From Patescibacteria group bacterium (GTDB lineage Bacteria > Patescibacteriota > Microgenomatia > UBA8517), in NCBI GenBank assembly GCA_038062915.1, contig JBBTWD010000002.1, forward strand, positions 5,189 to 69,188: a DNA stretch of 64,000 bases, written 5' to 3'. Below are positions 29,993 to 47,353 of the stretch, in pieces. Under the pieces are notes generated by a model. The model was not told where the DNA came from and ran no database searches. It saw only the letters and a list, made by a program, of their open reading frames with translations. The position numbers and the translations under genes were made by a program. Positions within the stretch are counted from its first letter, which is position 1. The number at the start of each line of letters is the position of its first letter.

Positions 29993-30864
29993 TATCCAGA
30001 TTTGCTTACTCTAAGCAATTTACGTTTAATTAATTTAAGTGGCGTCTCAATACTCGCCCTAGCCATATAAATACAACCTCTCCTTAACCATGGATTGCTA
30101 ACAATGTCCGGTTTTTCCCTAAAAAAAACCTCTGGATAGTAAAAATCGAGTGGAAATGATTTTCCCAATTCATATTTATACTTCAAATTTCGCTTCGGAA
30201 CATCAAAATCAAAATTTTTAGTAGATCTAGAAAGATTAGTAAAATGTAGATAAGAAGGTTTATTAATAAATTCTCTTCTTGCCTGCTCCATGTTTTGAAT
30301 CAAAACATTGTCCTTGTTGAAAAAACCCTGTTGACCGTGAGGTTTTGCAACGTTCAAACCATCAATTTTTCGATTGACCGCACGAGTATTAAAAAATCCT
30401 ATCTTACTATCAATCATGTACATACCTGCGGTTTCATCTTGAAAGTGATAAATATCTCCAATAAGATTTGTGTATTTATTGACAATCGTGTCCAAACCAT
30501 CTCCTTTAGCCTTAATGACAGAGACTAAATGGCGAATGCTATCCTGCCACCAAACTTCATCGCCATCAACTAGAATAAACCAATCAGTTTGGGTTTCTTC
30601 AAGCATTTTTTGTCTAACCAAAGTAAACTCATTCATATCAACTTTTCCTACTTCTTTAAAGTAAACCTTACCTGGCCTTGATTTTTCAATCTCCTTAATA
30701 ATTCCAATGGTTTTGTCGGTACTTCCAGTATCCCAAATAAAAATCTTGTCTACAAAATCGATTACACTCATAACACTAAACCATAAATATTTTTCTTCGT
30801 TTTGAACTAGTGTGTGAATTGTTATTGATTTGCTCATTTTTTGGATAGTTTGAAGAAATACCAA
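29989..30864 (-). CDS. GT2-like glycosyltransferase
   Basis: IWDTGSTDKT and a VDGDE DXD-like motif; weaker match. Confidence 0.5.
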   Translation of the reverse strand: MVFLQTIQKMSKSITIHTLVQNEEKYLWFSVMSVIDFVDKIFIWDTGSTDKTIGIIKEIEKSRPGKVYFKEVGKVDMNEFTLVRQKMLEETQTDWFILVDGDEVWWQDSIRHLVSVIKAKGDGLDTIVNKYTNLIGDIYHFQDETAGMYMIDSKIGFFNTRAVNRKIDGLNVAKPHGQQGFFNKDNVLIQNMEQARREFINKPSYLHFTNLSRSTKNFDFDVPKRNLKYKYELGKSFPLDFYYPEVFFREKPDIVSNPWLRRGCIYMARASIETPLKLIKRKLLRVSKSGY

Positions 30865-32105
30865 ATTGAAGATAGCGCTATAAATATTTGTCCAATTAAG
30901 ACAACCAAGCTTGTTCCCACGATTGAATATCGAGGAATAAAAATTATGCTGGTAACTAATATTATCACCATGTGAGCTATTCCCATGTAAAAGAAAAATT
31001 GAGGCTTGCTAAAATAAAATATTACACTGTCTCTGAATGGGGCGGTAGAAAAAAATATTGCCATTGCAACAACAAGGATTAGAAATGGCATAGTTGCGCT
31101 GTCAAAGTCACTCCCCGCAAACTTGAAAACAAAATGACCAATTATTACTAATGCTATTGAGCTGACTGTCGCAAGTCCCGATGTAAACAAAACGGATTTT
31201 ATGGTGTAGGCTAAATTCTTTTTGTTTGTGCTAAGTGAGGCAAATTTTGGTGCAGTAACCGCACCGATCGCTATCATTAACTGGGGAATGATTTGAGAGA
31301 TTTGGAGTGCCAGTCCATAAACTCCAAGTGAAGATAAGCTTAAATATCTTGCAGTAAAATACAACTCAATTCGAGACCCAATTGTTGAAACAATTACAAA
31401 AGCGGTTACCCATTTATTAAAACTAAAAAGATCGGGTAAATAAGCAAGAACTCCTTTTGAAAACAAAAATCTTTTACCCAAAAATATAAATGAAAACAAA
31501 AATCCTAAAAAGGGCAATACTAAATATATTACTGCCGCGGAGTAAGCACCAAGCGACTGAAACTTAAAAAGGAGAAGAATCATTAAAAGTCTTATCAGAT
31601 TTGTTCCAATAAAAAGTCCGCTCCATAAAAAATATTTTTCAAGAGACTGCGAAAGGGAGGTTGAAAAAGAGAAAAGAATTTGAGCCAAAACTCCAACGCC
31701 AATTAAAACAATAATCGAGGTTAACTCTGGTTTTTGTAAAACTAGCGATGAAATACTACCAGAGAAAATAAAAATTAACAAAAAAATAGTTAACCCTGAA
31801 ATAAATTTAATACCCAATGAAAGCTTAATAAGTTTATTTTGAATGTCAGGATTGTCTTTATATTTTGGGATAAATCTTACAATCCCTTGATCGCTTCCTA
31901 AATCTACAATCCCGGTCAGAAGTGCTATCGAAGTTGTAAAAATTGTAAATACACCAAACTCCGATGAACCTAAGAATTTAGCTAAAAGAAAATAAAAAAT
32001 AGCACCCAAAGCTCCATTAATCATCGTGCTAATCAGGGTAATTGAAGAGTTGCGAAAAGTACTAGTTAGGAAAATTTCTTTGAACATACTAAAAATATTA
32101 TACAA
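30834..32105 (-). CDS. wzx: Wzx-type oligosaccharide flippase (MOP superfamily, polysaccharide biosynthesis protein)
   Basis: About 12 TM helices; N-terminus ...MINGALGAIFYFLLAKFLGSSEFGVF... typical of Polysacc_synt. Confidence 0.75.
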   Translation of the reverse strand: MYNIFSMFKEIFLTSTFRNSSITLISTMINGALGAIFYFLLAKFLGSSEFGVFTIFTTSIALLTGIVDLGSDQGIVRFIPKYKDNPDIQNKLIKLSLGIKFISGLTIFLLIFIFSGSISSLVLQKPELTSIIVLIGVGVLAQILFSFSTSLSQSLEKYFLWSGLFIGTNLIRLLMILLLFKFQSLGAYSAAVIYLVLPFLGFLFSFIFLGKRFLFSKGVLAYLPDLFSFNKWVTAFVIVSTIGSRIELYFTARYLSLSSLGVYGLALQISQIIPQLMIAIGAVTAPKFASLSTNKKNLAYTIKSVLFTSGLATVSSIALVIIGHFVFKFAGSDFDSATMPFLILVVAMAIFFSTAPFRDSVIFYFSKPQFFFYMGIAHMVIILVTSIIFIPRYSIVGTSLVVLIGQIFIALSSIWYFFKLSKK

Positions 32106-34778: not shown

Positions 34779-36224
34779 GTGTTTAAAAAATATTTTCCTT
34801 TTATCCTTATTTATTCGATTGTAATTTTTTTGTACTATCCGGTCCTTTTTACATACTTCTCTCATGATGATTTTTTCCACTTTAAAGTTAGTATAACAGA
34901 CAGAGGTCTCGGGGAAATTATTAAGCTATTTGAGTTTTACCCATTTGACTCACGGGGGATTGCCTTTTATAGGCCGATATTTAGAGAGTTTTTGTATAAT
35001 AATTTTTATTATTTATTTGGGCTTAATCCACTACCTTTCAGGGTCTTTCAGTTTCTTATCCATTTCGTAAATATTTATCTTGTCTTTAGATTGGTACAAA
35101 AAATATACAAGAACAAAATTGTTTCATTTTTCACCTCTTTTTTCTTCGGGATTTGTACAGCAAATGTCGCTTCATTTTATTACTTGGCAGGGGGGATTCA
35201 AGTCCAAGGAGCTACGATGTTTATATTATCAACACTTATCTTGTTTGAAAAATATCCGGTTCTTTCGTTTATAACTTTCCTAGGAGCAATTTCCTCACAT
35301 GAGCTAGCTGCAACAGTCCCCATTCTCCTAATCGGCTTAATACTAATTAAGCATAAATTTAAAGATGGTTTAAAACAGATATGGATTCTTTGGCCCTATT
35401 TCATAGTTGTAGGAATTTATCTCTACATCAACCTAAAAATTATTGGTTATTCTACGAGTGAAACCCAATATAGTCCTGTCTTAAATCCAAAGACGACTAT
35501 TAACACTTTAGCCTGGTATGGTGGATGGGCGCTGGGGCTCCCTGAAACGCTTATAGACTTCGTTGGTCCCGGATTTAAATTAAATCCCAGTTTAATGAGA
35601 TTTTGGGGAAACTATTATAAAATAATTTTTCCTTCTTTTTTTGCCTCCGCTACCTTGATTGTTTTCTATTTAATTCAATCAGCACTATCGAAAAGTAGAA
35701 TATTTAAAGACAAACGATTTTGGTTTTTTATAATTTGGTTCCTGATAATTTTACTCCCCGTATTATTCCTTCCACAACATAAGTCAACATATTATTTATA
35801 TCCAGCATTACCGGCATTCTGGGCAGTACTAGGGATAATATCGTATAAAATGTCAAGGATATTGTTTGTAATTCTGGTTATATCTTTAGTTAGCTTATCT
35901 ACATCATCTGCAATTTTAGGCAGATCAACTTATTGGGCTTCTAGTCGGGGGAAACTGGCAGAAAAAATCATTAACAGCGTGAAGTTAAAATATCCTACTC
36001 TACCGGTAGGCTCGGGGGTTTACTTCATAAATGACTCAACATATCCATTCGTAGCCCAAGATTGGAAAGGCACATCCAAGCAGGCGTCATATGCGCTTAA
36101 CGGCGAAGACGGATTACAGCTTGTTTATAAGGATAAATTATTGAGGGTGTTTTATGAGGACAGTGGCGGAATACCTGACGAGTTTCCAATAGATAAAATA
36201 AAACCCATCGTTGCCATATATTAG
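34779..36224 (+). CDS. Polytopic membrane protein, GT-C-like
   Basis: About 12 TM helices; FSHDDFFHF in the first loop. Confidence 0.4.
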   Translation: MFKKYFPFILIYSIVIFLYYPVLFTYFSHDDFFHFKVSITDRGLGEIIKLFEFYPFDSRGIAFYRPIFREFLYNNFYYLFGLNPLPFRVFQFLIHFVNIYLVFRLVQKIYKNKIVSFFTSFFFGICTANVASFYYLAGGIQVQGATMFILSTLILFEKYPVLSFITFLGAISSHELAATVPILLIGLILIKHKFKDGLKQIWILWPYFIVVGIYLYINLKIIGYSTSETQYSPVLNPKTTINTLAWYGGWALGLPETLIDFVGPGFKLNPSLMRFWGNYYKIIFPSFFASATLIVFYLIQSALSKSRIFKDKRFWFFIIWFLIILLPVLFLPQHKSTYYLYPALPAFWAVLGIISYKMSRILFVILVISLVSLSTSSAILGRSTYWASSRGKLAEKIINSVKLKYPTLPVGSGVYFINDSTYPFVAQDWKGTSKQASYALNGEDGLQLVYKDKLLRVFYEDSGGIPDEFPIDKIKPIVAIY

Positions 36225-36544
36225 TCTTTCTTTAAAATCTGAAACAGTATGATTACAACCAATGTTCCAAAACCAGTACTTGCCGCCATTACAGCCATGT
36301 CGCGTAATTGAAAAATTTCTAATATTGAGGATGATATATAAAAAATCCCTACAGTTAAAAACCAAAAAAACAATTTAATTTTTGGATATTTATATATAAT
36401 AAAAATTAAAACCGTGAATAAACCTGCCTGTATTACTGGCCACAACGGATTAGTCAAAAAACCACTATTTAAAAACCAAAAGAAAGCAAAAACAAATAAA
36501 AGTAAGGCTATAGATTTTATATATTTTAGTATTTTCTTAATCAT
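36221..36544 (-). CDS. Small membrane protein (3 TM helices)
   Basis: ORF between two GT-C-like genes; hydrophobic. Confidence 0.35.
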   Translation of the reverse strand: MIKKILKYIKSIALLLFVFAFFWFLNSGFLTNPLWPVIQAGLFTVLIFIIYKYPKIKLFFWFLTVGIFYISSSILEIFQLRDMAVMAASTGFGTLVVIILFQILKKD

Positions 36545-39500
36545 TACGTTTTTTCCTTAAAAAGAATATTCCTACAACCACACTTGAAATAGTTGCAACT
36601 GCCGAAAACGTAATTCCCTTGTAAAATCTTTTTTGTGGAATAAATTCGATTTTTATTAAATATTCACCAGGATCTTCGTTTAGATACCATAGGTTACCAT
36701 ATCCGTTGGCTAAAAAATGGCGTTTTTCGGGTAAAACATATGACACCCCATCTTTAGTTAATGAAACTTTCCACTCTGGGTGAAAAGTTGTAAGAAAAAC
36801 CAGTGAAGTTGGACCATTCAATAATAGTCTACCCTCGTAGTAAGAAGGAGAAATCTGATTGATATCAATTTTTTGCCTATTTCTAACACCATCTTTTGCA
36901 ATATCAATAGATCTTAAAAACACATCATTAACCAAAAGTCGTTTAACAGATATATTTCGTATAGCGAAATCACTTTCTCTGTTGTAATCCTCACCGATTT
37001 CTTTGATTTTACATGCAACTTTATCGCCCAATATGGCCAAACAATTGTTCCAAGGCTCGCCATTAATTTTAACAACAGCTTCGGTAGTATTTAATCTAGG
37101 TTCAAAAAAGATTGACCCTGAATTCCAATAAAAGCTGTAATTATCCTTGTCATATATTTTATCTATCGACATATACCTTCTACCATTTACATCCCAGTCA
37201 GAGTCTTGCATCACTTGCAAAATGGGTCCCCGACCTTTTTTTATCCAATAATCAAAATCAACCCGATAAATACTATTTTTATCAAAGTCTTTTATATTAA
37301 ATGAGAGGCTTGAAGAATCAGTTTTAGAAGTATGAAAATCAAAAACTGGTTGAGTTGCATCACCAATCTGTTTAACCGATCCAGTTAATTGCCATTCTTG
37401 ACTGCCAATTTCAGGCGAAAGATTGACAGAGTCAACCATATTATAACTAATTTCGTGCAAACCCTTATCCAACTTAATAGTGCCAAACGAGAGAAACCCC
37501 ATTTTTAAATTTGCACTAAGCACTTTGACCTCGTTGTCAATTTGAAAGACTAGAGTTTTCAAACCACCTTGGTATTGAGAGTCACTTGGGGAATTTTTTA
37601 ATAATATCTCGTACTCAACATCTTTTTGGACATCAAATCTAAACACTTTTCGACCGTATTTACTCATTCCTATGTCTTCCTTTAATTCGTAAAACGGTAC
37701 GAATCCTAAATCGGACAACTTAATCTTCATATTCTCAAGTGCACTCAAATTATTCAGATCTTTTAAAACTATCTCATGCCTGGCGAGCATGGTTTTTAAT
37801 ATCAATTTTTCAGTTTTATCTACTAGTCCTCCCACCTGTCTTTGATTTATGATCTCGACTGCTTTATCAAACCTCTTGCTGTAATTAGCAATCATACGAT
37901 TGGCTAATTTAATATTCCCCTTTTCTGTTAACCGATGGGCTTCAGATAATCTTTTGCCGGCATGATCTAGTTCTACAAAATGCTTATTCATAGCAGGTGA
38001 TGAGACAAGTTGTACTTGTTCTTTTATCAAGATTAAGGAGTAAAAAAGAGAGTCGGGTAAAAAACGTGGCCTTGGAAGCTCTGCTAGCGCATTTTCTTTA
38101 TAAGCAAGGGGGGAAGACGGAGTTAGAATGGTATGAGTCGAGGTTATGGAATAATTCAAATTGCTTTGAGCTGACAACTCGTCTTGATTGTCATTTACTG
38201 GTGTTGCAAAAAACACGGGCCAAGATTCATTTTCATAAATCTCAGGCCAAATGGAAAAACCAATACTACCACCGGTTAAAACATTATAAACTTCTGCTGT
38301 AAACACCTTTGGTGTAAAAAAACTATCGTCAATTTCATAGATCACCAAATCACCAAAAGTTACTTTTTTCTGAATAAAACTTATTTGGAATAAAACTTTT
38401 TCGATAGCGTCCGGATTAACCAATACTCTTGCCTTCCAATCAATATCTTTATGCAAAACGATATATCTAATATTTAAATTTGAGAATACATTTGCCAGGC
38501 TTTTTTGATCAAAACTATTCGAAGTAAAAATGATATTTATAGAAGCTAGACTATGATCCACTTGTTCGAGTCCGAAACCATTTGAAACTGATGGAGTTGA
38601 GAATAGGAGTGAGCTTGGCTCAATTCCATTATATCCCTTTTCCCATGAATAAGTAACAGCGTCGCCAGTAACAAATGGCAAATGAAGAATTCTTCCAGAT
38701 TTATTTTCATCCTTAATCCAGGCGTTTGCTCTTATATAATCTTCAGGAACCTCAACCAATGCTGATTGTGATTTACTTCCAAAGATTTCTCCAAGCCACA
38801 TTGGCCAAGGGTAAATAATAAACTCAAGGACTAAAAGTGTGGAAATAAATACATAAGCCAAAATTCTCTTACCTGAAAATTTGGATTTTAGGAAAAAACA
38901 AATCTTTTCTATTCCTATTGGAAATATAAAGGCCGATGCAAAAGGAATCAATATCCCAAATTTTTCAAATGGATTACGAAACGCGCCCAAAAGAAATGAC
39001 TTACTGAAAGCCAAAAGAAAAGGATGTCCGAATGGGGCAGCTGTTCCTTTTGAGACAAAAATTGCTAACAAGAATAAGAAAATCCATACATAAAAATGTC
39101 TTTTTTTGCTAACTATAATCGAATAAATACCAATCAAAGTAACTAAAGGTATTGACCAGGAAATTAACTGCATTAAAAAATGACCATACCCACCAACCCA
39201 TATGTTTTCACCGAAAGTATAAAAGGAGTTGATACCACGCAGTACAACCGATATCGGGTTTTGATTGCTCAAAGAAAGAAGTGTCGCAATACTCGCATAA
39301 ATTGAATGTATTTGGGCAAATAATGTCGGACCGGTCGTCCAAAATGGATAAAGCCACCAAATATTGATAGCTAACCAGGAAACAAATACTAAAATAAGAA
39401 TTTTTAGATTTCTAAAAAAATTGTTCCAAATTGAATAAGTTAAAATAGGTATCCATATAATGACCATAAACGATAAACTGCCATATATATATGAGAAGGC

Positions 39501-40070
39501 GAATGATATGAAAAGAAAAACTAGATACCAAAAGAGACGTTTGGATTTTATCAATTTAATATAAACATAAGTTATAAGGGGCATCATTGCAGCTAAGAAA
39601 AATGAGGTATGAACAAACCTATGCCATATTTGAACTTCCATGTAGGGATTTAGCATGTAAAAAAGTGCGGCGATGAAAGATAAAACTCTTGATTTTGAAG
39701 ATGTTGCTTCAAAAAAAAGCAAATACATCCCTAAACCTGTAAGAAAGAGTAGTGTCGAAAAAAGAATCGCTTGAATCGCTACAGGAGACATACCTACGGT
39801 TTGCAATATGGCTAAAGTAGAATATAGGGGGATTGAAGTTAAAGCGCTAGGATAAGGAAATCCTGGGGCATGTACATCCCACCAGATATCTTTTACAATG
39901 GATGAAAGACGTATGGGATTGTAAGTAGGAAGACCAACATCCCCACCGCCATATAGAATACCTGTCCGAAACCAACTTAAAATCATAATGACAGTAATGG
40001 CTAAAAAAATACTTAATGGCCAAATATGGTAGCGTGCCTTAGAAAGAAGACTATTTACTTTTTTTAACAT
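36537..40070 (-). CDS. Giant polytopic membrane protein, GT-C-like (1177 aa)
   Basis: N-terminus IMILSWFRTGILYGGGDVGL...AIQAILFSTLLFLTGLGMYLLF is paralogous to 47338..49239; about 700-aa extracytoplasmic domain; C-terminal TM anchor. Confidence 0.45.
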   Translation of the reverse strand: MLKKVNSLLSKARYHIWPLSIFLAITVIMILSWFRTGILYGGGDVGLPTYNPIRLSSIVKDIWWDVHAPGFPYPSALTSIPLYSTLAILQTVGMSPVAIQAILFSTLLFLTGLGMYLLFFEATSSKSRVLSFIAALFYMLNPYMEVQIWHRFVHTSFFLAAMMPLITYVYIKLIKSKRLFWYLVFLFISFAFSYIYGSLSFMVIIWIPILTYSIWNNFFRNLKILILVFVSWLAINIWWLYPFWTTGPTLFAQIHSIYASIATLLSLSNQNPISVVLRGINSFYTFGENIWVGGYGHFLMQLISWSIPLVTLIGIYSIIVSKKRHFYVWIFLFLLAIFVSKGTAAPFGHPFLLAFSKSFLLGAFRNPFEKFGILIPFASAFIFPIGIEKICFFLKSKFSGKRILAYVFISTLLVLEFIIYPWPMWLGEIFGSKSQSALVEVPEDYIRANAWIKDENKSGRILHLPFVTGDAVTYSWEKGYNGIEPSSLLFSTPSVSNGFGLEQVDHSLASINIIFTSNSFDQKSLANVFSNLNIRYIVLHKDIDWKARVLVNPDAIEKVLFQISFIQKKVTFGDLVIYEIDDSFFTPKVFTAEVYNVLTGGSIGFSIWPEIYENESWPVFFATPVNDNQDELSAQSNLNYSITSTHTILTPSSPLAYKENALAELPRPRFLPDSLFYSLILIKEQVQLVSSPAMNKHFVELDHAGKRLSEAHRLTEKGNIKLANRMIANYSKRFDKAVEIINQRQVGGLVDKTEKLILKTMLARHEIVLKDLNNLSALENMKIKLSDLGFVPFYELKEDIGMSKYGRKVFRFDVQKDVEYEILLKNSPSDSQYQGGLKTLVFQIDNEVKVLSANLKMGFLSFGTIKLDKGLHEISYNMVDSVNLSPEIGSQEWQLTGSVKQIGDATQPVFDFHTSKTDSSSLSFNIKDFDKNSIYRVDFDYWIKKGRGPILQVMQDSDWDVNGRRYMSIDKIYDKDNYSFYWNSGSIFFEPRLNTTEAVVKINGEPWNNCLAILGDKVACKIKEIGEDYNRESDFAIRNISVKRLLVNDVFLRSIDIAKDGVRNRQKIDINQISPSYYEGRLLLNGPTSLVFLTTFHPEWKVSLTKDGVSYVLPEKRHFLANGYGNLWYLNEDPGEYLIKIEFIPQKRFYKGITFSAVATISSVVVGIFFLRKKRND

Positions 40071-40737
40071 TTATCTTTTTGTATGCCACAAAAACATAAT
40101 CTGCAAACGTCTGATCCCAATAATATAATGGGGAAATTACAATATTAAATAAAAACAATAATTTCTTTATTAAATCTGATTTTACTCTATGAACCAAACC
40201 GACCTCCCCAAGCAACCAACGGTTACCATACTTTAAGGTTTTATAACCCAGTCTCTTAAAATCTTTTGGAAAAAAGTGTGATAGATGCAATTGTAATTTA
40301 TTACCATCAACCGCGGGGTGGTACATTTCACCAATTGGAGTAGCTATAATAACTTGCTTTTTAGCTATCCGTTCTAAATCCTTTATAAATTTAGTTGCAT
40401 CATGGGGTGGGAGGTGTTCAATAACGTGTGAGGCAATAACAATGTCAAAACTTCTGGCAGGAAACTTCATTTTTCTAATATCGCTTAGGACATACTTATC
40501 ATGGAGCTTGCTTCTTCTGGCTTGGCTAATATATTTTTCAAATAAATCTACTCCCACAACATAATCGGGCTTTAATACCATTCTTATTAATCTCATTGGA
40601 TAACCCTGTCCACAACCAACGTCTAAGATACTCGACCCTGATCTATCTATAACTTTGCAAACAGGGTCTACAAGCATGTCCAACCAAAGTTTGATAGGGA
40701 ATAATGATTTATCGATTTTTTTATATATTTTTAACAT
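40051..40737 (-). CDS. Class I SAM-dependent methyltransferase (small, about 200 aa)
   Basis: ILDVGCGQGYPM...FDIVIASHVIEHL...QVIIATPIG...HPAVDGN. Confidence 0.75.
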   Translation of the reverse strand: MLKIYKKIDKSLFPIKLWLDMLVDPVCKVIDRSGSSILDVGCGQGYPMRLIRMVLKPDYVVGVDLFEKYISQARRSKLHDKYVLSDIRKMKFPARSFDIVIASHVIEHLPPHDATKFIKDLERIAKKQVIIATPIGEMYHPAVDGNKLQLHLSHFFPKDFKRLGYKTLKYGNRWLLGEVGLVHRVKSDLIKKLLFLFNIVISPLYYWDQTFADYVFVAYKKINVKKSK

Positions 40738-42250
40738 TTTTGTAAGCTACCATGTAGTAATTAGCCAGCGGTTGAATAAAATAGGTTAGCCAATTAACGA
40801 GGAGTATAAGTGAATAAATTAACTTTTTCCATACACCATTTTGGTATCTGTCTATTAATCCCCCAATACCTTCAATCTCGCTTCTACCCATTTTTATTAC
40901 TTTGTATCCCCTAGCTATCAACTCATCTGGCATAAATCCTGATTTATGTAGTTGAAGGCGATTACCATCAACAGCTGGGTGAAATGTCCTTCCAATTGGC
41001 ATAGATATAATAACTTGCTTTTTAGCTATCTTTTCTAAATTGTCTAGAACCCTTAAAGATTCATCTTTTCTTATGTGTTCTAAAACCTGCAGGGCAATAA
41101 CAATATCAAAAGACTTATTCTCAAACGGCAAATTCCTGACATCAGCTAGTGAATATGAATCATGTATTCCCTTTCTTCTACATTCATTGATATAGGGTTT
41201 AAAAAGATCAACTCCATGGACAAACTTAAATTTTATTTTTTCTTTTAAAACCTGCATTGGAAGTCCACCCCCGCAAGCTACATCTAAAATGGTTTTACCC
41301 GATGTATCAATAACCCTACAAACCGGGTCAACCAATGAAATCAAGAAAAGTTTTAATGGGAAAAAAGAATAATCGATTCCGGAAATAATTCCCTTCCAAT
41401 AATTAGACAAAACATCAAATCTTGCAGTCATTAAAATAATTAAAGAATGTAAAACGATGTAAATTGGCTCGTAAAAAAACATAAAGACTAGAAAGTTGTT
41501 TTTTTGTGCATGTTTTTTCATAAATATGATCTTATTTTTACTTACTCTAAATGATCTCTCGGGAGTTGTTATCCCCAACCATTGAAGCCAGGGGTTAATA
41601 AATGTTTTTTTAGCTCCCGTATGCCAAGCGCGAGATTTCGGAACATAAAATATTTTATACCCAGCTTTTCTAGCTCTTATGGAGAAGTCAGAATCTTCAT
41701 AGGGAATAAAGATTTCCTCATCGTAGTCTCCAATTTTATCAAACACATCCCGCCTTACCAACCAAGTACATCCGGCCATTGGAATTTCGATTACTTTCTC
41801 AAACTGACCTACATCTTTTTGGTGAACTCCAATGCCAAAAACTCTGCCGGTTTTAAGGTTAATGCCATGTCCAACTCCTTGAATAATATCTGGCTTTCCC
41901 ATTTCATAAATTTTAGGTTGGACTATTCCAATTTTAGAGTCAGTTGTTATAACTTTAATAAGTTCTTTAACCATCTGTCTGTCTGCAACAGCATCGTCAT
42001 CCATGAATAAAACAAATTGACCTTTAGTATGGAGTAGCCCTAAATTTCTTCCTCCCGCACCCCCCAGATTTGTTTCACTTCTAATAACATTAATGCTTGA
42101 GGTTTTCTTGACTCGTTGGCTTGAGGCATTGTCGACAACAACAATTTCATCAATTTTCTGTGACTGAGCTAATATTGATTTAAGACATAGTGAAAGTTCC
42201 TTGTTGCGGTTTCTTGTTACAATTACTACTGATATGGAAGGCTTGTTCAT
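40721..42250 (-). CDS. Bifunctional GT2 glycosyltransferase - SAM methyltransferase fusion
   Basis: N-terminal SVVIVTRNRNKELSLCL...IVVVDNASS...FMDDDAV; C-terminal ILDVACGGGLPM...FDIVIALQVLEHI...QVIISMPIG...HPAVDGN. Confidence 0.75.
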   Translation of the reverse strand: MNKPSISVVIVTRNRNKELSLCLKSILAQSQKIDEIVVVDNASSQRVKKTSSINVIRSETNLGGAGGRNLGLLHTKGQFVLFMDDDAVADRQMVKELIKVITTDSKIGIVQPKIYEMGKPDIIQGVGHGINLKTGRVFGIGVHQKDVGQFEKVIEIPMAGCTWLVRRDVFDKIGDYDEEIFIPYEDSDFSIRARKAGYKIFYVPKSRAWHTGAKKTFINPWLQWLGITTPERSFRVSKNKIIFMKKHAQKNNFLVFMFFYEPIYIVLHSLIILMTARFDVLSNYWKGIISGIDYSFFPLKLFLISLVDPVCRVIDTSGKTILDVACGGGLPMQVLKEKIKFKFVHGVDLFKPYINECRRKGIHDSYSLADVRNLPFENKSFDIVIALQVLEHIRKDESLRVLDNLEKIAKKQVIISMPIGRTFHPAVDGNRLQLHKSGFMPDELIARGYKVIKMGRSEIEGIGGLIDRYQNGVWKKLIYSLILLVNWLTYFIQPLANYYMVAYKNVKNI

Positions 42251-42267
42251 CTCGAAGGTATTATAAA

Positions 42268-43308
42268 CTACCAGCGTTTACTTGCCAAAAAAGTTTTAAA
42301 ACCTTGAAGTGTTTGCCCCTTTATTAGAAATGGTATAAACGCTTGACTGTCCGAAAGCTTTCTTTTCCCCTGAACAGATGACCTTTTGTTCATAAGTATG
42401 GAAAAATTCAGGATAGCCCAGACAATCGCCTTAAACCTGGCCAAACCAAATCTCCAAAGGCCTTTGTAAAATATTTCAAATAATCCGGAAGCGATATAAA
42501 TTAAAAAAATCACGGGTATTGACTTAATTGCATTCACGAAATTGTAATTTTTAATTACAGTAGAAATTCTATTTTTATTAAACCAGAATTTTATTTCAGC
42601 CTTTAATTTAGCGCTCACTCTCGATGTTGAAGACCCTCGCTTATGATAAACAATAGCTTCTGGGAAACAGTAAATCTTATAGCCAAGAAGTCGCAACCTC
42701 AAGGATAAATCCATATCTTCATAACCAATTCGATAATCGGGGTCAAGAATCCCAACTTCAGGAATAAGACTGGCTCTAAAAAGAGACGTAGATCCAGTAA
42801 CTGATAAAACCTCCCTCAACTTGTTATATTGCCCCATGTCTTCTTCCCCCCCACCCAAGGTTACGGGGTTACCAAATATATCCATCGACTCTCCAACACT
42901 ATCAATTTTTTTGTGGTCAAAATATGAAAGAACCTTTCCTTGAATTTGACCAGCTTCGGGGTGGCTGTCCATAAAATTTACCAATTTCTCAATTGCACCT
43001 TTTGCAAAATATATATCGTTATTCAAAAAGAAAATATATTTCCCACTGGATTTTTTAATTGCCATGTTAATACCTTTGGTCATATTATTTACCGGGTTTT
43101 GTATTATTTGAAGCCTTTTATCATGGCCAAAATGCTTTCTAACCTCTCTAACACTATCATCAGAGGAAACCATATCAACAAAAAAAATTTCAAAATCCTT
43201 AAAACTTCCATTTAAGAAATCCTTGAAGAAGTCACCCAAAAGTCCCAATTCCCAACCATTATAATTAGTTACAATCGCACTGACTAAGGGTGATTTTTTG
43301 TTTACCAT
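42268..43308 (-). CDS. GT2 family glycosyltransferase with C-terminal TM segment
   Basis: VSAIVTNYNG...FVDMVSSDDS...FFLNNDIY; paralog of the GT2 domain in 40721..42250. Confidence 0.8.
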   Translation of the reverse strand: MVNKKSPLVSAIVTNYNGWELGLLGDFFKDFLNGSFKDFEIFFVDMVSSDDSVREVRKHFGHDKRLQIIQNPVNNMTKGINMAIKKSSGKYIFFLNNDIYFAKGAIEKLVNFMDSHPEAGQIQGKVLSYFDHKKIDSVGESMDIFGNPVTLGGGEEDMGQYNKLREVLSVTGSTSLFRASLIPEVGILDPDYRIGYEDMDLSLRLRLLGYKIYCFPEAIVYHKRGSSTSRVSAKLKAEIKFWFNKNRISTVIKNYNFVNAIKSIPVIFLIYIASGLFEIFYKGLWRFGLARFKAIVWAILNFSILMNKRSSVQGKRKLSDSQAFIPFLIKGQTLQGFKTFLASKRW

Positions 43309-43365: not shown

Positions 43366-44640
43366 GTGGTTATGAAAAATTTAAAGGTGCCAGGTAAGGT
43401 AAGACCAATTACTTCTTGTCAGGCTTGTCAGAGTAAAAACTTATACAAATTTATTAATTTTGGTCCTATGCCAAAACCAAATATTTATATGACAAGGGAG
43501 GAAGCTCTGGAACAAGGTTTACAAACTTTCCAACTTGACGCAAGTCTTTGTACCGACTGTGGATTGGTCCAATTGGGCGAGATCGTGCCTTCAGAGGAAC
43601 TATTCGCCGAAAATTATGCCTACCGAACCCCAGAGGCTATGAGGCCCGATTTTAAAGAAAGTGCAGAAGAAACTGCTTCACTTGCTGGAATAAAAAAAGG
43701 GGCAAAAGTACTTGAGATTGGCAGTAATATTGGTATCTGCCTTGATGAATACAGGAAAATGGGCATGAAGGTTCTTGGAGTAGACCCCGCCACAATATAT
43801 GCAAAACAAGCCAACAAATCAGGAATTGAAACAATTATTGAACCATTTACTCCATCCCTTGCCGACAACATCGTCAGAGAAAAAGGAAAAATGGATGTTG
43901 TAACCGCGGCTAATGTTCTTCAACATATCCCCGATCTTGTTGGAACAATTGAAGGAATCAGAAAGGTATTGGCCCCCAATGGGGTATTTTCTTTGGAATT
44001 CCCATACTTGGGAGATATATTAAATAATACCGACTTCGATACCTTCTATGCAGAACACTATTACTACCTTTCCCTAGCTCCACTCCAGAAAATATTCGAG
44101 TCGATGGGAATGACGATGGTTCATGCAAAAAAACTACCTCAAATCCATAATGGTTCCATGAGAATTTTTGTAAAACATGGCCGTGGATCAACAAATATGA
44201 GTAGAGACCTCTGGTTAATGATAAAGGATGAAGAAGACTCCGGATTTCTTAACCCAAAAAAGTTTTCAGATTTTAAGTCCCGAGTAGATAACATAGTTCA
44301 TCAAATAAACATGCATTTGTATGTTGCCAAAGCTAGAGGTGAACATGTGGTGGCCCATGGATGTTCTGCAAAGTTTGTAACACTTACCAACTATATGCAT
44401 ATTGGGGAAGATGTTATTTCTTACGTAGCCGATAACACAGATGTAAAACAAGGTAAGGTGACTCCGGGTATGGGCATCCCTGTAGTTTCGGAGGAAAAAT
44501 TAATGAATGACGCACCAGATATTATTTTTAATGGAATCAGAAACTTCTATAATTACAATAAAGAAAAGTACGACAAAATAAAAAAGAAAAATCCAAAAAC
44601 CAAAATCCTCATGCCGATTCCAGAGGTTTACTATCTTTAA
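43366..44640 (+). CDS. NDP-hexose C-methyltransferase-like (zinc-ribbon + MTase + C-MT C-terminal domain; TylCIII family)
   Basis: CQAC...x33...CTDCGLVQL zinc ribbon; VLEIGSNIGI motif I; C-terminal domain present. Confidence 0.7.
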   Translation: MVMKNLKVPGKVRPITSCQACQSKNLYKFINFGPMPKPNIYMTREEALEQGLQTFQLDASLCTDCGLVQLGEIVPSEELFAENYAYRTPEAMRPDFKESAEETASLAGIKKGAKVLEIGSNIGICLDEYRKMGMKVLGVDPATIYAKQANKSGIETIIEPFTPSLADNIVREKGKMDVVTAANVLQHIPDLVGTIEGIRKVLAPNGVFSLEFPYLGDILNNTDFDTFYAEHYYYLSLAPLQKIFESMGMTMVHAKKLPQIHNGSMRIFVKHGRGSTNMSRDLWLMIKDEEDSGFLNPKKFSDFKSRVDNIVHQINMHLYVAKARGEHVVAHGCSAKFVTLTNYMHIGEDVISYVADNTDVKQGKVTPGMGIPVVSEEKLMNDAPDIIFNGIRNFYNYNKEKYDKIKKKNPKTKILMPIPEVYYL

Positions 44641-45553
44641 AATTATTACTGATGTAATCGGTGACCGCCTCTTTCCATGTAGGAAACTCCATATCTAATA
44701 GCTCTTCTGTCTTTTTGACCTTTAGGCCTCCATTGGGGTTATATGGAGATTTTTTACCTATTAACTTTTCATAATCTAGTATTGAACCGGGTTTTACTTC
44801 ATTGTCAATTTTTATTTGCTTAGCTAAAAATGTACCGATTTCGAAAGGCGTGGTAATTTCACGACAAGCTACATGGAACTTACCGACTAACTTATTTGAG
44901 ATAATATTTTTTAAAGCATCACCTAAAACCGATATGTAGGTGGGGCTAAACTTTTGATCATTAAAAAGTGGTCTGTCTTTTTTAATGCCTTCAATAAGTT
45001 TTAAAACATAATCTTTATTCATATCCCTACTGCCAAAAGGATAAGCGATTCTAACAATTGAAAATTTGTCGCAATATTTTTCTACTACTTCCTCTGCTTT
45101 TCTTTTAGTAAATCCGTACCAATCCACCGTCCCATCATTAACGAGTTTGTCGTACTCATCAAATGGGCCATTCCCGCCGTAAAAAACATTGTCTGTCGAT
45201 ATATAACTTAAATAGAGACCACCTTGTCTACAAACTTTTGCAACATTAGATGTTCCTTCAACATTCAATTTCCAAGCGAGACCATCTTTATTACCAATTT
45301 CAGCCAATGAACCCTTAACATCCGTGTAGGCGGCTAAATTTAAGACAACGTCTATCCCGCTTTGCCTAATAAAATTTTGGAGCGATTCGAAGTCTAAAAT
45401 GTCAACGTCGTTAGAAGAAACAAATAATAAATTCTGTGCAAGGTCCACGTATAATTCCTTGAGCCTGCTTCCTATAAAACCAGATCCACCCAAGACCAAT
45501 GTTTTAGGATATGGTAGGGTCGTCATATTTATAAATTGTAATCCTTGACACAA
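44609..45553 (-). CDS. RmlD-like NAD(P)H-dependent 4-ketosugar reductase (dTDP-4-dehydrorhamnose reductase family)
   Basis: LVLGGSGFIGS...YISTDNVFYG...YGFTKRKAEE; RmlD substrate-binding pattern. Confidence 0.7.
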   Translation of the reverse strand: MCQGLQFINMTTLPYPKTLVLGGSGFIGSRLKELYVDLAQNLLFVSSNDVDILDFESLQNFIRQSGIDVVLNLAAYTDVKGSLAEIGNKDGLAWKLNVEGTSNVAKVCRQGGLYLSYISTDNVFYGGNGPFDEYDKLVNDGTVDWYGFTKRKAEEVVEKYCDKFSIVRIAYPFGSRDMNKDYVLKLIEGIKKDRPLFNDQKFSPTYISVLGDALKNIISNKLVGKFHVACREITTPFEIGTFLAKQIKIDNEVKPGSILDYEKLIGKKSPYNPNGGLKVKKTEELLDMEFPTWKEAVTDYISNNFKDSKPLESA

Positions 45554-46161
45554 AAAAGACCACCACTAATTTTTGGGATAAAATAACTAACAGGTGTAAA
45601 TAAATAATATAATGCCTGCTTTATTCGAAGAAATTTATCTTCAAGAAGCAATGGGATTTTTAAACCAAGCCCATAAACACTATAACCAAACTTTTTAAAA
45701 TCAGAGACCTTCCATATTGATTTATGTTCATCTTCTTTTTCTCCATGGAGTGTGTCAAAAAAAAGATTTGGTGTAGAAACAATTGCCCTGCCCTTGCATA
45801 CCCTATCTATTTCTCTTAATAATATTAGTCCGTCTTTCTTTTTAAGGTGTTCTATAACCTCTGTACAAATCAGAAAATCAATACTTTTATCCTTAAATGG
45901 AAGTTTTGGTAAACCTGCATGAACAAGCTTGTCGTAAATATTGAAATGACGGCAAAAATCAAGACATGCAGTGTTAATATCCATCCCGATAAGTTTTGCC
46001 CCACTCCAATCCCTTGTGGCACGAATAAGCGATCCATTTAGTCCCCTTCCGCAACCGACATCAAGTATTGTCTTTCCAATGAGAATAGGCGTAAAGTAAG
46101 AAATAAATGGGTGTAAAAAAAGGGGGTGGGTTCCTCCGGGGGCATAATTAATCTTTAACAT
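45529..46161 (-). CDS. Class I SAM-dependent methyltransferase (third paralog of the small MTase family)
   Basis: ILDVGCGRGLNG...IDFLICTEVIEHL...AIVSTPN. Confidence 0.75.
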   Translation of the reverse strand: MLKINYAPGGTHPLFLHPFISYFTPILIGKTILDVGCGRGLNGSLIRATRDWSGAKLIGMDINTACLDFCRHFNIYDKLVHAGLPKLPFKDKSIDFLICTEVIEHLKKKDGLILLREIDRVCKGRAIVSTPNLFFDTLHGEKEDEHKSIWKVSDFKKFGYSVYGLGLKIPLLLEDKFLRIKQALYYLFTPVSYFIPKISGGLFCVKDYNL

Positions 46162-47353
46162 GTTCCAATACCTCCCTTGCTCGCAGGTCCCATGACCAAT
46201 TTTTGCTAATCATCTCTAACGCCTCTTTGCCAATCTTTTCTCTGATTTTATTATTAGATAGCAAATTTAAAATTTCCTTTGCAAATTCATCCAAATCTCC
46301 GATCTTTACTTTGACCATTCCTTTTGGATAATAGGAGGAATATGATTTAAGATCAAAGCCAATACAGGGTATGCCAAATGCCATAGCTTCAGCAGAAGCC
46401 ATACCACCACTATCATAAAGTGCGGGGTGAACTACAATTTTTGACTCTGAAAAAGTTTGATATTTTTTGTCCCCGTCAAAAACATAACCCAAGAGGTCAA
46501 TGTTATCCTCTAATTTTGCGTCTTTAATTTTTGATTTAACATTCTTCATTAATGGACCATCTCCGATCATTACCAGTTTGGCATTTTTATTTTTAACTAC
46601 AACCTTTTTCCAAATTTCTATAATCTCGACAACACCTTTTTGGGGATGGAACCTACCTTGAAAAACCGCATCATACACCTTGGGTAGATTTTTATTTATG
46701 AATTTCCAATTTTCAATCTTTTTTACGTCCACCGCACCAAGAACAACAATAGTTTTACCCTTTTTATCAAGCCCAGGGAACTCTTTTCTTTCTCCCTCGT
46801 TGTTAACTAAAACAAAATCTGAAAATTTGGAAATTATGGGTTTAATAGGAAACTGGCTTAACCAATAGAGAAGTGCTTTAAATCTATATTTCTCTTCTCT
46901 CGCTCCTTCGGCATATCCCCTAAAGGGGTTTGGGGCCGTCTGATACCAAGTTGCAACCCACTTAATATTTGGGTAACGAATTTTCAAAATAAAGCATGGT
47001 AAAGTGTCCATCCAAAAATCAGACGCGCTGTACAATATAGTCTCTTTTTTGTTTTGAAGTTTAATCGATAACCCAAGTCTAATTCCTTCTATAATTCTGG
47101 CAAAATAATTTACTACAAAACCTAGGTCACTCCATGGTTTCATTGAAGAAATTTTAAAAGCTATATTTTTACTTTTTAAATCTTGTCTTTTACACATTTG
47201 GTAACCTTCAGTCCAAAGATAAATATTAATTTTAGACTTTTTACTCCACCGTCTCGCAAATTCTATAAATATCCTGTCACTACCAGAAAGACCTACTCCA
47301 AGGGCCCCCAATGCGAAAATTTTTATATTTTGAGTTTTTATTGCCATGGCCAT
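46148..47353 (-). CDS. GT4 family glycosyltransferase
   Basis: Glycos_transf_1 C-domain with GGMASAEAMAFGIPCIGFD. Confidence 0.8.
   Translation of the reverse strand: MAMAIKTQNIKIFALGALGVGLSGSDRIFIEFARRWSKKSKINIYLWTEGYQMCKRQDLKSKNIAFKISSMKPWSDLGFVVNYFARIIEGIRLGLSIKLQNKKETILYSASDFWMDTLPCFILKIRYPNIKWVATWYQTAPNPFRGYAEGAREEKYRFKALLYWLSQFPIKPIISKFSDFVLVNNEGERKEFPGLDKKGKTIVVLGAVDVKKIENWKFINKNLPKVYDAVFQGRFHPQKGVVEIIEIWKKVVVKNKNAKLVMIGDGPLMKNVKSKIKDAKLEDNIDLLGYVFDGDKKYQTFSESKIVVHPALYDSGGMASAEAMAFGIPCIGFDLKSYSSYYPKGMVKVKIGDLDEFAKEILNLLSNNKIREKIGKEALEMISKNWSWDLRAREVLEHVKD

What the first reader, a model, noticed from the sequence alone, without database searches (positions are those of the whole stretch)
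40051..43308. Recent tandem duplication of a GT2 + methyltransferase unit, with the middle copy fused (GT2, then GT2-MTase, then MTase)
The C-terminal 200 aa of 40721..42250 and the stand-alone MTase 40051..40737 are close paralogs (ILDVACGGGLPM.../ILDVGCGQGYPM..., QVIISMPIG/QVIIATPIG, HPAVDGN in both). Their DNA is also alike, with an identical 25-mer tataataacttgctttttagctatc near 40350 and 41010. The N-terminal GT2 domain of the fusion is paralogous to the upstream GT2 (42268..43308). A third MTase of the same family sits at 45529..46161. A covalent GT2-MTase fusion implies coupled sugar transfer and methylation, for example adding a methylated hexose or rhamnose. The duplication looks evolutionarily recent.
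Basis: seen in the sequence. Interest (0 to 1): 0.55.

Follow-up and report, generated by a model that had tools for sequence, protein, structure and literature searches.

The report
Ancient glycosyltransferase–methyltransferase fusion with old paralog
A sugar-adding enzyme fused to a methyl-adding enzyme, followed by a second stand-alone copy of the methyl-adding enzyme, is a genuine but old and widely conserved gene arrangement in a cell-surface sugar-polymer cluster of an uncultured Patescibacteria bacterium. It is not a recent duplication, so the finding is largely ordinary.

Summary
**Observation.** The ORFs, the 48% identical methyltransferase (MT) pair and the identical 25-mer are all real.

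**Interpretation.** "Recent tandem duplication of a GT2+MT unit" is not supported.
- The two MT copies are 57% identical in DNA, with dN 0.51 and dS about 1.6 (saturated).
- Each copy has its own orthologs in at least 4 other genomes. The fused-copy clade has bootstrap 100, the stand-alone clade 99, and the two have mirror-image topologies. The duplication therefore predates those lineages.
- The adjacent GT2 is only 27% identical to the fusion's GT2 domain. That makes it third-best of six GT2 paralogs in the window.
- The gene order GT2, GT2-MT, MT does not fit duplication of one unit.

**The fusion.** It is not an artefact. At least 120 protein clusters, 44–75% identical and full length, carry both domains, and all named ones are Patescibacteria/Microgenomates. 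Relatives show every variant: GT2-MT alone, GT2-MT-MT triple fusion, and split GT2|MT.

**The 25-mer.** It is best explained by a short gene-conversion patch.

**Likely function.** A GlfT2/WbbL-like GT-A glycosyltransferase coupled to SAM-dependent methylation, working with the AftD-like GT-C gene that almost always sits next to it, to build a methylated envelope glycan. Comparable GT–MT fusions are already known (WsaE, Klebsiella O7 ORF6). Interest is low.

The parts
42268..43308 (-). Stand-alone GT2 glycosyltransferase (346 aa), first gene of the co-oriented run
   Evidence: Pfam PF00535 70.5 bits. It is 27% identical to the fusion's GT2 domain. Orthologs 60-72% identical sit at the same position in L001, L008, L009, L010 and L021.
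40721..42250 (-). Bifunctional GT2-methyltransferase fusion protein (509 aa)
   Evidence: Pfam GT2 83.6 bits plus Methyltransf_11 53.6 bits. At least 120 full-length homolog clusters carry both domains. AF2 model has pLDDT 92.8 and pTM 0.88.
41567..42250 (-). GT-A catalytic domain of the fusion (aa 1-228). The DxD motif D84-D86 lies at 41993-42001.
   Evidence: D84, D85, D86, E185 and D186 are invariant in 62 homologs. Best Foldseek matches are GlfT2 and ppGalNAc-T.
41312..41566 (-). Helical linker region (aa 229-313) with one strongly hydrophobic helix (aa 254-281)
   Evidence: DSSP helices at 230-247, 250-274, 278-295 and 297-307. Kyte-Doolittle score is 1.9. Y284, G287, G291, Y294 and P309 are conserved across the junction.
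40721..41311 (-). Class I SAM-dependent MT domain of the fusion (aa 314-509), the 'A' copy. The SAM-binding motif LDVACGGG lies at 41264-41287.
   Evidence: Pfam. Invariant residues include D323, G327, G329, D348, D370, D382, E391 and H392. The A clade has bootstrap 100.
40051..40737 (-). Stand-alone MT (228 aa), the 'S' copy. Its ATG overlaps the fusion's 3' end by 17 nt. The SAM-binding motif LDVGCGQG lies at 40603-40626.
   Evidence: 48% identical to fusion aa 288-506. It has its own orthologs at 40-88% identity. The S clade has bootstrap 99. It keeps 18/18 invariant and 27/28 near-invariant MT residues.
40345..40369 (.). Exact 25-mer within the S copy (encodes IAKKQVII); probable micro gene-conversion patch
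41006..41030 (.). Exact 25-mer within the A copy (same motif)
36537..40070 (-). AftD-like GT-C membrane glycosyltransferase with a DUF5667 insert (1177 aa). It overlaps the S copy by 20 nt and is the conserved partner of the fusion.
   Evidence: Pfam PF11847 61 bits and PF18915 44 bits. A homolog is adjacent to the GT2-MT gene in 21 related loci.
36221..36544 (-). 107-aa protein with four predicted transmembrane helices, following the GT-C
   Evidence: Hydropathy. Conserved in L008, L009 and L010. ORFs of similar size follow GT-C genes in L001, L002, L005 and L007.
45529..46161 (-). Third, more distant MT paralog (210 aa) downstream of a GT4 gene
   Evidence: 31% identical to both A and S. It forms its own clade with bootstrap 100.

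Best explanation
Genes 43308->36221 on the minus strand form a conserved envelope-glycan assembly module of Microgenomates-type Patescibacteria: GT2 | GT2-MT fusion | MT | AftD-like GT-C | small 4-TM protein.

**Proposed mechanism**
- The fusion protein joins an inverting, DxD-dependent GT-A glycosyltransferase of the GlfT/WbbL-like GT2 branch to a class I SAM-dependent methyltransferase through a helical, partly hydrophobic linker.
- At the cytoplasmic face of the membrane it most likely adds a sugar to a lipid-linked glycan and methylates that sugar or a neighbouring one. The sugar may be a 6-deoxyhexose, given the RmlD-like and C-methyltransferase genes nearby.
- The stand-alone MT probably adds a second methyl mark with a different position or acceptor. 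It is an ancient paralog of the fused MT domain and still looks catalytically competent.
- The adjacent GT-C then probably uses or extends the product outside the membrane.

**History**
- The fusion is old.
- The MT duplication predates the common ancestor of at least five sampled genomes.
- Fusion and fission of these domains recur in the group.
- The identical 25-mer is a short gene-conversion patch, not a sign of recency.

**Shown versus inferred**
- Shown: domain identities, conservation, age, synteny.
- Inferred: donor sugar, methyl acceptor, order of reactions, role of the GT-C.
For: **The fusion is real and old**
- At least 120 clusters at 44-75% identity, 97-100% coverage, with both Pfam domains.
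- The identical protein was seen on 3 contigs and is held by 3 sources.
- The junction between the domains is conserved.
- The AF2 model is confident as a single body: pLDDT 92.8, pTM 0.88.

**The duplication is old**
- 57% nt identity and 45% at third positions.
- dN 0.51 and dS 1.6, against ortholog dN of 0.15-0.30.
- A clade bootstrap 100 and S clade bootstrap 99, with the same topology (L001,(L009,(L008,(WIN,L010)))).
- Quartet sites 115 orthology: 16: 12.
- The GT2|GT2-MT|MT|GT-C order is kept in L001, L008, L009, L010 and the JGI contig.

**Fusion and fission recur**
- L002 has a 745-aa GT2-MT-MT protein whose second MT groups with the stand-alone MT of L018 (bootstrap 99).
- L021 and L028 have split GT2|MT.

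**Both MT copies are functional-looking**
- 18/18 invariant residues are kept in the stand-alone copy.

**GT type**
- Best structural matches are GlfT2 chains (E about 1e-14, 334-344 aligned columns).
- Best sub-threshold NCBIfam matches are MftF, rhamnosyltransferase TIGR01556 and GlfT1.

**Context**
- A GT-C homolog is adjacent in 21 related loci.
- RmlD-like, NDP-hexose C-MT-like, GT4 and Wzx-like genes are nearby.

**Micro-conversion**
- P is about 7e-4 for a 25-nt run under independent codon choice.
- Both WIN copies share derived ATA/AAG codons that L010's copies lack, and WIN's A copy has S-type 'QVII'.
- Concerted sites cluster at codons 131-148.
Against: - No biochemical data exist for any member.
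- All NCBIfam equivalog scores are far below their cut-offs, so donor and acceptor are unknown.
- The MT's nearest solved structures are generic class I MTs. Phosphoethanolamine N-MTs rank above the sugar O-MTs RebM/AtmM, and TM-scores are only about 0.55. Sugar O-methylation is therefore contextual inference.
- Deep nodes of the MT tree are unresolved (bootstrap 22-60). One ancient duplication versus several cannot be decided.
- The excess of concerted sites over the homoplasy control is small (16 vs 12; 19 vs 16; 15 vs 14; 21 vs 9). L001 also has a 26-nt exact run at another conserved motif. The conversion claim is suggestive only.
- My trees are NJ on Kimura distances, not ML.
Confidence: 0.7

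Rival explanations
1. One reading: a recent tandem duplication of a GT2+MT two-gene unit, with the middle GT2 and MT then fused.
For: The MT pair is 48% identical with no gaps. There is an exact 25-mer and a 130-nt core at 72% identity. All copies are adjacent and co-oriented.
Against: - dS is saturated and dN is 0.51.
- The A and S clades are each shared by five genomes with mirrored topology, and quartet sites are 115:16:12.
- The two GT2 sequences are only 27% identical, no closer than distant GT2 genes in the window.
- The gene order GT2, GT2, MT, MT is incompatible with a single unit duplication.
- The fusion exists without any second MT in many genomes (L003, L005, L012, L020, L022, L030).
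Confidence: 0.02
2. The 509-aa ORF is an assembly or sequencing artefact: a lost stop codon or frameshift joining separate GT2 and MT genes.
For: Split GT2|MT arrangements do exist in relatives (L021, L028). One gene caller reported only the MT part in L010.
Against: - At least 120 independent clusters from different assemblies have the same fused architecture at full coverage.
- The identical protein is seen on 3 contigs and held by 3 sources.
- Linker residues are conserved.
- AF2 packs both domains confidently.
- In L010 the full 508-aa ORF is actually open.
Confidence: 0.01
3. The MT domains act as chain terminators. Like WsaE or WbdD, they cap the non-reducing end of a polymer with a methyl group to stop elongation and mark it for export, rather than decorating internal residues.
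For: Precedents are WsaE, an MT-GT-GT enzyme whose methyl cap terminates an S-layer rhamnan (PMC2943079), and Klebsiella O7 ORF6 (PMC11231755). The GT domain is structurally nearest to the processive polymerase GlfT2.
Against: - No Wzm/Wzt ABC transporter was seen among the 30 neighbouring proteins scanned. A Wzx-like flippase is present instead.
- There is no coiled-coil ruler domain in the model.
- Two to three MT paralogs per locus suit multiple decorations better than a single cap.
- WbdD was not among the PDB sequence hits at E<=0.01.
Confidence: 0.15
4. The GT2 domain is a polyprenyl-phosphate sugar synthase (GtrB/DPM1-like). It would make a lipid-linked, possibly methylated, monosaccharide donor that the small 4-TM protein flips and the neighbouring GT-C uses. 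This would be a three-component extracytoplasmic glycosylation system.
For: The GT2-MT gene is very tightly linked to a GT-C, and a roughly 105-aa multi-TM protein follows the GT-C. Three-component systems of this logic are described in PMC11127046 (one search list). A hydrophobic helix follows the GT-A domain.
Against: - Best family and structure matches are glycan-elongating GT2 enzymes (GlfT2, GlfT1, WbbL-type rhamnosyltransferase, MftF), not GtrB/DPM1/ArnC.
- The small protein has no GtrA Pfam hit.
- There is only one clearly hydrophobic helix rather than the two C-terminal TM helices of GtrB (my knowledge of GtrB; not tested here).
Confidence: 0.12

Closest known systems
WsaE of Geobacillus stearothermophilus NRS 2004/3a (S-layer glycan methyl-rhamnosyltransferase)
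   Same: One polypeptide combines SAM-dependent O-methyltransferase and GT domains for a lipid-linked 6-deoxyhexose glycan, and it lies in a cluster with rml genes (PMC2943079).
   Different: The domain order is MT-GT-GT rather than GT-MT. WsaE has two GT domains, is a soluble enzyme in an ABC-transporter pathway, and its methyl group is a terminating cap.
Klebsiella pneumoniae O7 ORF6 (MT-kinase-CBM-coiled coil-GT2-GT2) and E. coli O9a WbdD
   Same: GT2 modules are covalently or physically coupled to a methyltransferase in polysaccharide assembly (PMC11231755).
   Different: These are much larger and have a coiled-coil molecular ruler and a kinase; the methyl goes onto a phosphate; they use ABC-transporter export. 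None of these features is in the 509-aa protein. WbdD was not recovered by the PDB sequence search.
Pseudomonas syringae CPA 'TET' operon GT and O-methyltransferase
   Same: The GT and O-MT genes are adjacent and are fused in some isolates but separate in others (PMC7820976). This is the same fusion/fission plasticity seen here.
   Different: The GT is a GT4/WbdA-like bifunctional enzyme, not GT2, and the context is proteobacterial LPS with Wzm/Wzt.
Mycofactocin MftF (GT2) / MftM (oligosaccharide methyltransferase)
   Same: These are the best NCBIfam matches for the GT domain (MftF, 92.5 bits) and for the stand-alone MT (MftM, 47.1 bits). They are a GT2 that builds an oligosaccharide and an MT that O-methylates it.
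   Different: Scores are far below the cut-offs (280 and 200). MftF and MftM are separate proteins, and no mycofactocin genes are present. This is not a member.
Galactofuranosyltransferases GlfT2/GlfT1 and WbbL-type rhamnosyltransferases (GT2)
   Same: GlfT2 chains give the lowest Foldseek E-values, covering the GT-A domain plus following helices (334-344 columns). The DxD motif is present, and sub-threshold NCBIfam matches are found.
   Different: Identity is only 15-17%. There is no N-terminal beta-sandwich, and a C-terminal MT domain stands in place of GlfT2's C-terminal domain. The donor sugar is unknown.
Sugar O-methyltransferases RebM / AtmM
   Same: Class I MTs that methylate a glycosyl hydroxyl. 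Both appear among the structural and sequence matches.
   Different: Identity is 18-20% and TM-score about 0.56. They rank below phosphoethanolamine N-MTs and uncharacterised MTs, so there is no specific affiliation.

Membership tests
CAZy/Pfam GT2 (GT-A fold, inverting, DxD) | Match to PF00535 above the gathering score | tested here: met
   83.6 bits against a cut-off of 23.3 for the fusion; 70.5 bits for the upstream GT2
CAZy/Pfam GT2 (GT-A fold, inverting, DxD) | Conserved DxD metal/nucleotide-binding motif and GT-A fold | tested here: met
   D84-D85-D86 are invariant in 62 homologs. The AF2 model matches the GT-A enzymes GlfT2 and ppGalNAc-T at E about 1e-14.
Class I SAM-dependent methyltransferase (Methyltransf_11/25) | Pfam match above the gathering score and the D/E-x-G-x-G-x-G SAM motif | tested here: met
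   Fusion 53.6 bits, MT1 62 bits, MT3 53.7 bits, against a cut-off of 21.2. LDVACGGG and LDVGCGQG are conserved. The fold matches class I MTs.
Sugar O-methyltransferase (functional class) | Demonstrated or family-specific assignment of a carbohydrate hydroxyl as the methyl acceptor | not testable with these tools
   Only context (fusion to a GT, glycan cluster) and weak resemblance to RebM/AtmM/MftM
Mycofactocin MftF / MftM | NCBIfam equivalog score at or above the cut-off | tested here: not met
   MftF 92.5 against a cut-off of 280. MftM 34.5 (fusion) and 47.1 (MT1) against a cut-off of 200.
WbbL-type rhamnosyltransferase (TIGR01556) / GlfT1 (NF050113) | NCBIfam score at or above the cut-off | tested here: not met
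   71.9 against a cut-off of 200.55; 63.2 against a cut-off of 330
WbdD/WsaE-type chain-terminating GT-MT enzymes | Coiled-coil ruler or ABC-transporter (Wzm/Wzt) pathway context; methyl cap at the non-reducing end | tested here: not met
   The model has no coiled coil. No ABC transporter was found among the 30 neighbouring proteins scanned, and a Wzx-like protein is present instead. The cap chemistry itself is not testable.
Recent tandem segmental duplication | High nucleotide identity including synonymous sites, and paralogs grouping within the genome | tested here: not met
   57% nt identity, dS about 1.6. Paralogs group by orthology (bootstrap 100 and 99; quartet sites 115:16:12).

The most novel reading that the evidence does not exclude
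The five-gene module [GT2][GT2-MT][MT][AftD-like GT-C with DUF5667][4-TM protein] is a lineage-specific, uncharacterised assembly line for a multiply methylated cell-envelope polymer of Microgenomates-type Patescibacteria. In this reading the cytoplasmic GT2-MT enzyme is mechanistically coupled to an extracytoplasmic GT-C. The two MT paralogs have been kept distinct for a very long time while still exchanging short gene-conversion patches at their catalytic motifs.
Probability: 0.3. Interest if true: 0.4.

Novelty: new member of a known kind. Interest (0 to 1): 0.2.

Why it matters
- **As posed:** a recent duplication caught in the act of fusing. It does not hold, so its evolutionary interest disappears.
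- **What remains:** a well-conserved, experimentally untouched bifunctional glycosyltransferase–methyltransferase family tightly linked to AftD-like GT-C enzymes in Patescibacteria, whose cell envelopes are almost unknown.
- **Possible use:** methylated surface glycans could matter for how these episymbionts attach to hosts. The family also offers a natural series of fused, split and triple-fused variants for studying domain fusion and fission. This is modestly useful but not surprising to a specialist.

Tried and rejected
- **Recent duplication:** rejected by codon-level identity, dN/dS, phylogeny and quartet analysis.
- **Unit (GT2+MT) duplication:** rejected. BLASTP of the fusion's GT2 domain against all window ORFs puts the neighbouring GT2 third of six, and the repeat search finds no GT2-GT2 DNA similarity.
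- **Missing-stop artefact:** rejected by homologs and by the conserved junction.
- **P0215 (235 aa, 77% identical to the fused MT) as a natural split:** the 508-aa ORF is open in that locus (L010). The short protein was the gene caller's choice of start, not evidence of fission.
- **Chance as the source of the 25-mer:** the simulation gives P about 7e-4, so pure chance is unlikely. However, the quartet excess is small.
- **Assignment to a named equivalog family (MftF, MftM, GlfT1, rhamnosyltransferase):** all scores are below the cut-offs.
- **AFDB50 fold search:** the library was unavailable.
- **Literature searches:** nothing specific was found for a described Patescibacteria GT2-MT or GT-C system.
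- **First codon-resampling script:** it timed out and was rerun.
- **Promoter/terminator scan:** site counts were not above shuffles.
Full report

- GT2, 42268..43308 (346 aa)
- a 509-aa ORF, 40721..42250
- an MT, 40051..40737 (228 aa)
- a further MT, 45529..46161 (210 aa)

Pfam finds Glycos_transf_2 (83.6 bits) and Methyltransf_11 (53.6 bits) in the 509-aa protein. It finds Methyltransf_11 in both small proteins and Glycos_transf_2 in the 346-aa protein.

The stand-alone MT aligns with residues 288-506 of the fusion without a gap: 48% identity, E 1e-70. The third MT is 31% identical to both.

The 25-mer TATAATAACTTGCTTTTTAGCTATC occurs exactly twice, at 40345 and 41006, and no shuffle produced a copy. 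The repeat finder adds a 130-nt core at 72% identity and a 37-nt stretch at 81%, both at the same 661-nt spacing. It finds nothing between the two GT2 sequences.

The descriptive part of the finding therefore holds, except for the words 'close' and 'DNA also alike'.

**2. Is the duplication recent, and is it a GT2+MT unit?**

No to both.

Sequence divergence between the two MT copies:
- Codon-aligned DNA identity is 57%, and 45% at third positions.
- Resampling codons from the window's own codon usage gives 54% overall and 37% +/- 3% at third positions for two independent genes encoding these proteins.
- Nei-Gojobori estimates are dN 0.51 and dS about 1.6, which is saturated. Orthologs of either copy in other genomes have dN of 0.15-0.30.

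Each copy has its own orthologs:
- The stand-alone MT has its own orthologs: 228-229-aa proteins at 72-88% identity and slightly shorter ones down to 40%.
- Many share contig lengths with the orthologs of the fusion, so they appear to lie on the same contigs.

Phylogeny:
- In an NJ tree of MT domains taken from loci with known gene order, the fused copies of the window, L010, L008, L009 and L001 form one clade (bootstrap 100).
- The stand-alone copies of the same five genomes form another (bootstrap 99, together with L025 and L027).
- Both clades have the same internal order: (L001,(L009,(L008,(WIN,L010)))).
- Quartet site counts for window/L010 are 115 for orthology, 16 for within-genome grouping and 12 for the third topology.
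- The duplication therefore predates the common ancestor of these genomes, whose fusion proteins have diverged to 63% identity.

The 'unit' idea also fails:
- The neighbouring GT2 is 27% identical to the fusion's GT2 domain.
- It ranks third among six GT2 paralogs spread over the window, all at 26-31%.
- The order GT2, GT2, MT, MT is not what one tandem duplication of a GT2-MT unit would produce.

**3. Is the fusion an artefact?**

No.
- The protein search returned 390 hits. The best 120 are all 492-745 aa, cover 97-100% of the query at 44-75% identity and carry both GT2 and MT Pfam domains.
- The named hits are 'Patescibacteria group bacterium' or 'Candidatus Daviesbacteria'.
- The identical 509-aa protein is on three contigs and is held by three sources.
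- In a 62-sequence alignment, residues across the junction (Y284, G287, G291, Y294, P309) are invariant or nearly so.
- AlphaFold2 gives one confident body: pLDDT 92.8, pTM 0.88.
- A scan of species-representative genomes found about 20 full-length relatives. Those with informative titles are Daviesbacteria, Woesebacteria, Microgenomates or Patescibacteria.

**4. Anatomy and variation of the family**

ORF and domain calling in 30 related loci shows these arrangements:
- GT2 | GT2-MT | MT: window, L001, L008, L009, L010, L018
- GT2 | GT2-MT-MT as one 745-aa protein: L002 (= P0014)
- GT2 | MT3-like | GT2-MT: L014, L015, L016, L019
- GT2-MT with no second MT: L003, L005, L012, L020, L022, L030
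- split GT2 | MT: L021, L028
- the GT2 domain at the N-terminus of an 889-904-aa protein followed by a stand-alone MT: L025, L027

The second MT of the L002 triple fusion groups with the stand-alone MT of L018 (bootstrap 99). This is direct evidence that this domain has been fused or split off between related genomes.

In the window, the stand-alone MT's ATG lies 17 nt inside the fusion's 3' end in another frame. A single indel there could join or separate the two genes.

The stand-alone copy resembles the consensus of all fused MT domains more than the window's own fused copy does: median identity 52% versus 44%. The fused A clade sits on a long branch. In this lineage the fused copy is therefore the more diverged one.

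The stand-alone copy keeps all 18 invariant and 27 of 28 near-invariant MT residues. The fused domain retains the family's invariant residues in the 62-sequence alignment. Both look catalytically competent.

**5. The 25-mer**

It encodes IAKKQVII in a conserved motif.
- Given the two protein sequences and the genome's codon usage, an exact run of 25 nt or more arose in 0.07% of simulations.
- Orthologous paralog pairs in L001, L008, L009 and L010 use different codons there.
- The two window copies share ATA and AAG codons that neither L010 copy has.
- The window's fused copy reads QVII like the S lineage, whereas its closest ortholog reads QVVV.
- Conversely, the window's stand-alone copy reads HPAVDGNK like the A lineage, whereas other S copies read HPPVDGNH/T.
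- Within-genome ('concerted') sites in window-containing quartets cluster at codons 131-148, where the control topology has none.

I read this as one or two short gene-conversion patches between old tandem paralogs. The overall excess of concerted sites is small (16 vs 12, 19 vs 16, 15 vs 14, 21 vs 9), so this remains suggestive rather than proven.

**6. What it most likely does**

GT domain:
- It has the invariant DxD motif (D84-D86) and the E185-D186 pair.
- Its best structural matches are GlfT2 chains over 334-344 columns (E about 1e-14), with polypeptide GalNAc-transferases at similar E-values.
- The best NCBIfam matches, all below their cut-offs, are MftF, the WbbL-type rhamnosyltransferase subfamily and GlfT1.
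- These are cytoplasmic enzymes that extend glycans, mostly lipid-linked ones (my knowledge of these families).

Linker:
- A helical linker with one hydrophobic helix (aa 254-281, Kyte-Doolittle 1.9) follows.

MT domain:
- It is a class I SAM enzyme without a specific affiliation.
- Phosphoethanolamine N-MTs, uncharacterised MTs and the sugar O-MTs RebM/AtmM all match at TM-score about 0.55.

Genomic context:
- The window is a glycan super-cluster of more than 40 kb.
- It contains GT2 and GT4 genes, two RmlD-like reductases, an NDP-hexose C-methyltransferase-type gene (43366..44640), a Wzx-like flippase (30834..32105) and several large membrane proteins.
- The most consistent partner is the AftD-like GT-C (36537..40070). 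A homolog is directly downstream of the GT2-MT(-MT) genes in 16 distinct related loci and directly upstream in 5. It is usually followed by a roughly 105-aa multi-TM protein.

Proposal (inferred, not shown):
- The fusion adds a sugar to a lipid-linked intermediate and methylates it.
- The paralogous MT adds a second, different methyl mark.
- The GT-C acts on the product outside the membrane.
- A 6-deoxyhexose donor is plausible from the RmlD-like genes and the weak rhamnosyltransferase resemblance.

**7. Comparison with what is known**

Covalent GT-MT enzymes are established:
- WsaE: MT-GT-GT, a 2-O-methyl cap on an S-layer rhamnan (PMC2943079).
- Klebsiella O7 ORF6: MT-kinase-CBM-coiled coil-GT2-GT2 (PMC11231755).
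- Pseudomonas syringae: GT and O-MT genes fused in some isolates (PMC7820976).

The present family differs in several ways:
- domain order (GT-MT)
- small size
- absence of a coiled coil
- a Wzx rather than an ABC-transporter context
- linkage to a GT-C

It meets the definitions of GT2 and of class I MT. It fails the cut-offs of every named equivalog family tested. Source databases already label members 'GT2 family glycosyltransferase/SAM-dependent methyltransferase'. I found no paper on this system in Patescibacteria.

**8. Verdict**

- It is right that the fusion is real and probably couples glycosyl transfer with methylation.
- This is a new, uncharacterised member of a known kind of bifunctional enzyme, in an old conserved module.
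- Interest is 0.2.

Limits of this analysis:
- Trees are NJ with Kimura distances.
- Deep nodes are unresolved.
- No substrate is established.

Noticed in passing
window 36537-40070 (and related loci L001-L030): An AftD-like GT-C with a DUF5667 insert is almost always adjacent to the GT2-MT gene: directly downstream in 16 distinct related loci and directly upstream in 5. This suggests a functional pair that nobody has described.
   Followed up: partly
window 47338-49239: A 633-aa membrane protein with no Pfam hit is a second AftD-like GT-C paralog. It is 33% identical over 564 aa to 36537..40070 and lacks the DUF5667 middle part.
   Followed up: partly
window 36221-36544: A 107-aa protein with four predicted TM helices overlaps the end of the GT-C gene. 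ORFs of similar size (102-118 aa) follow GT-C genes in L001, L002, L005, L007, L008, L009 and L010. It has no Pfam family and is a possible flippase or accessory subunit.
   Followed up: partly
window 43366-44640 (+), 44609-45553 (-), 50234-51166 (-): An NDP-hexose C-methyltransferase-type protein (zinc-binding Methyltransf_13 plus Methyltransf_14) is divergently transcribed from the GT2 run, and two RmlD-like reductases lie nearby. This hints at a C-methylated or branched 6-deoxyhexose in the glycan.
   Followed up: no
window 40259-40450 vs 40920-41111; L001 codon column 156 of the MT alignment: Short patches look like gene conversion between the ancient tandem MT paralogs at catalytic motifs (IAKKQVII, HPAVDGNK). 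A separate 26-nt exact run lies at VDGNKLQLH in L001.
   Followed up: partly
window 42260-42288 (-): The best sigma-70-like match in 36-44 kb (TTGGCA-17-TATAAT, 11/12) lies in the short gap just upstream of the fusion's ATG. The overall site count is not above shuffles.
   Followed up: no
L025:3945-6659 and L027:3576-6245: In a Woesebacteria MAG and another Patescibacteria MAG, the ortholog of the fusion's GT2 domain is the N-terminal part of an 889-904-aa protein and is followed by a stand-alone MT of the S clade. The extra roughly 600 aa were not examined.
   Followed up: no
L011, L015, L016, L018, L021, L022, L024, L028, L029 (record titles): Several GTDB representative MAGs titled 'uncultured Gammaproteobacteria' carry this Patescibacteria-type locus at 35-68% identity with the same synteny. 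The titles are probably placeholder or wrong taxonomy.
   Followed up: no
window 28175-29992 (+), 30834-32105 (-): An asparagine-synthase homolog and a Wzx-like (Polysacc_synt) flippase sit inside the glycan cluster. An asparagine-synthase homolog (wsfA) is also listed among the S-layer glycosylation (slg) cluster genes of Paenibacillus alvei.
   Followed up: no
window 32066-34777, 34779-36224, 55242-57011, 59995-61752: Four further large ORFs (903, 481, 589 and 585 aa) in the cluster have no Pfam hit at E<=1e-5. They were not examined further and could be additional membrane glycosyltransferases or polymerases.
   Followed up: no
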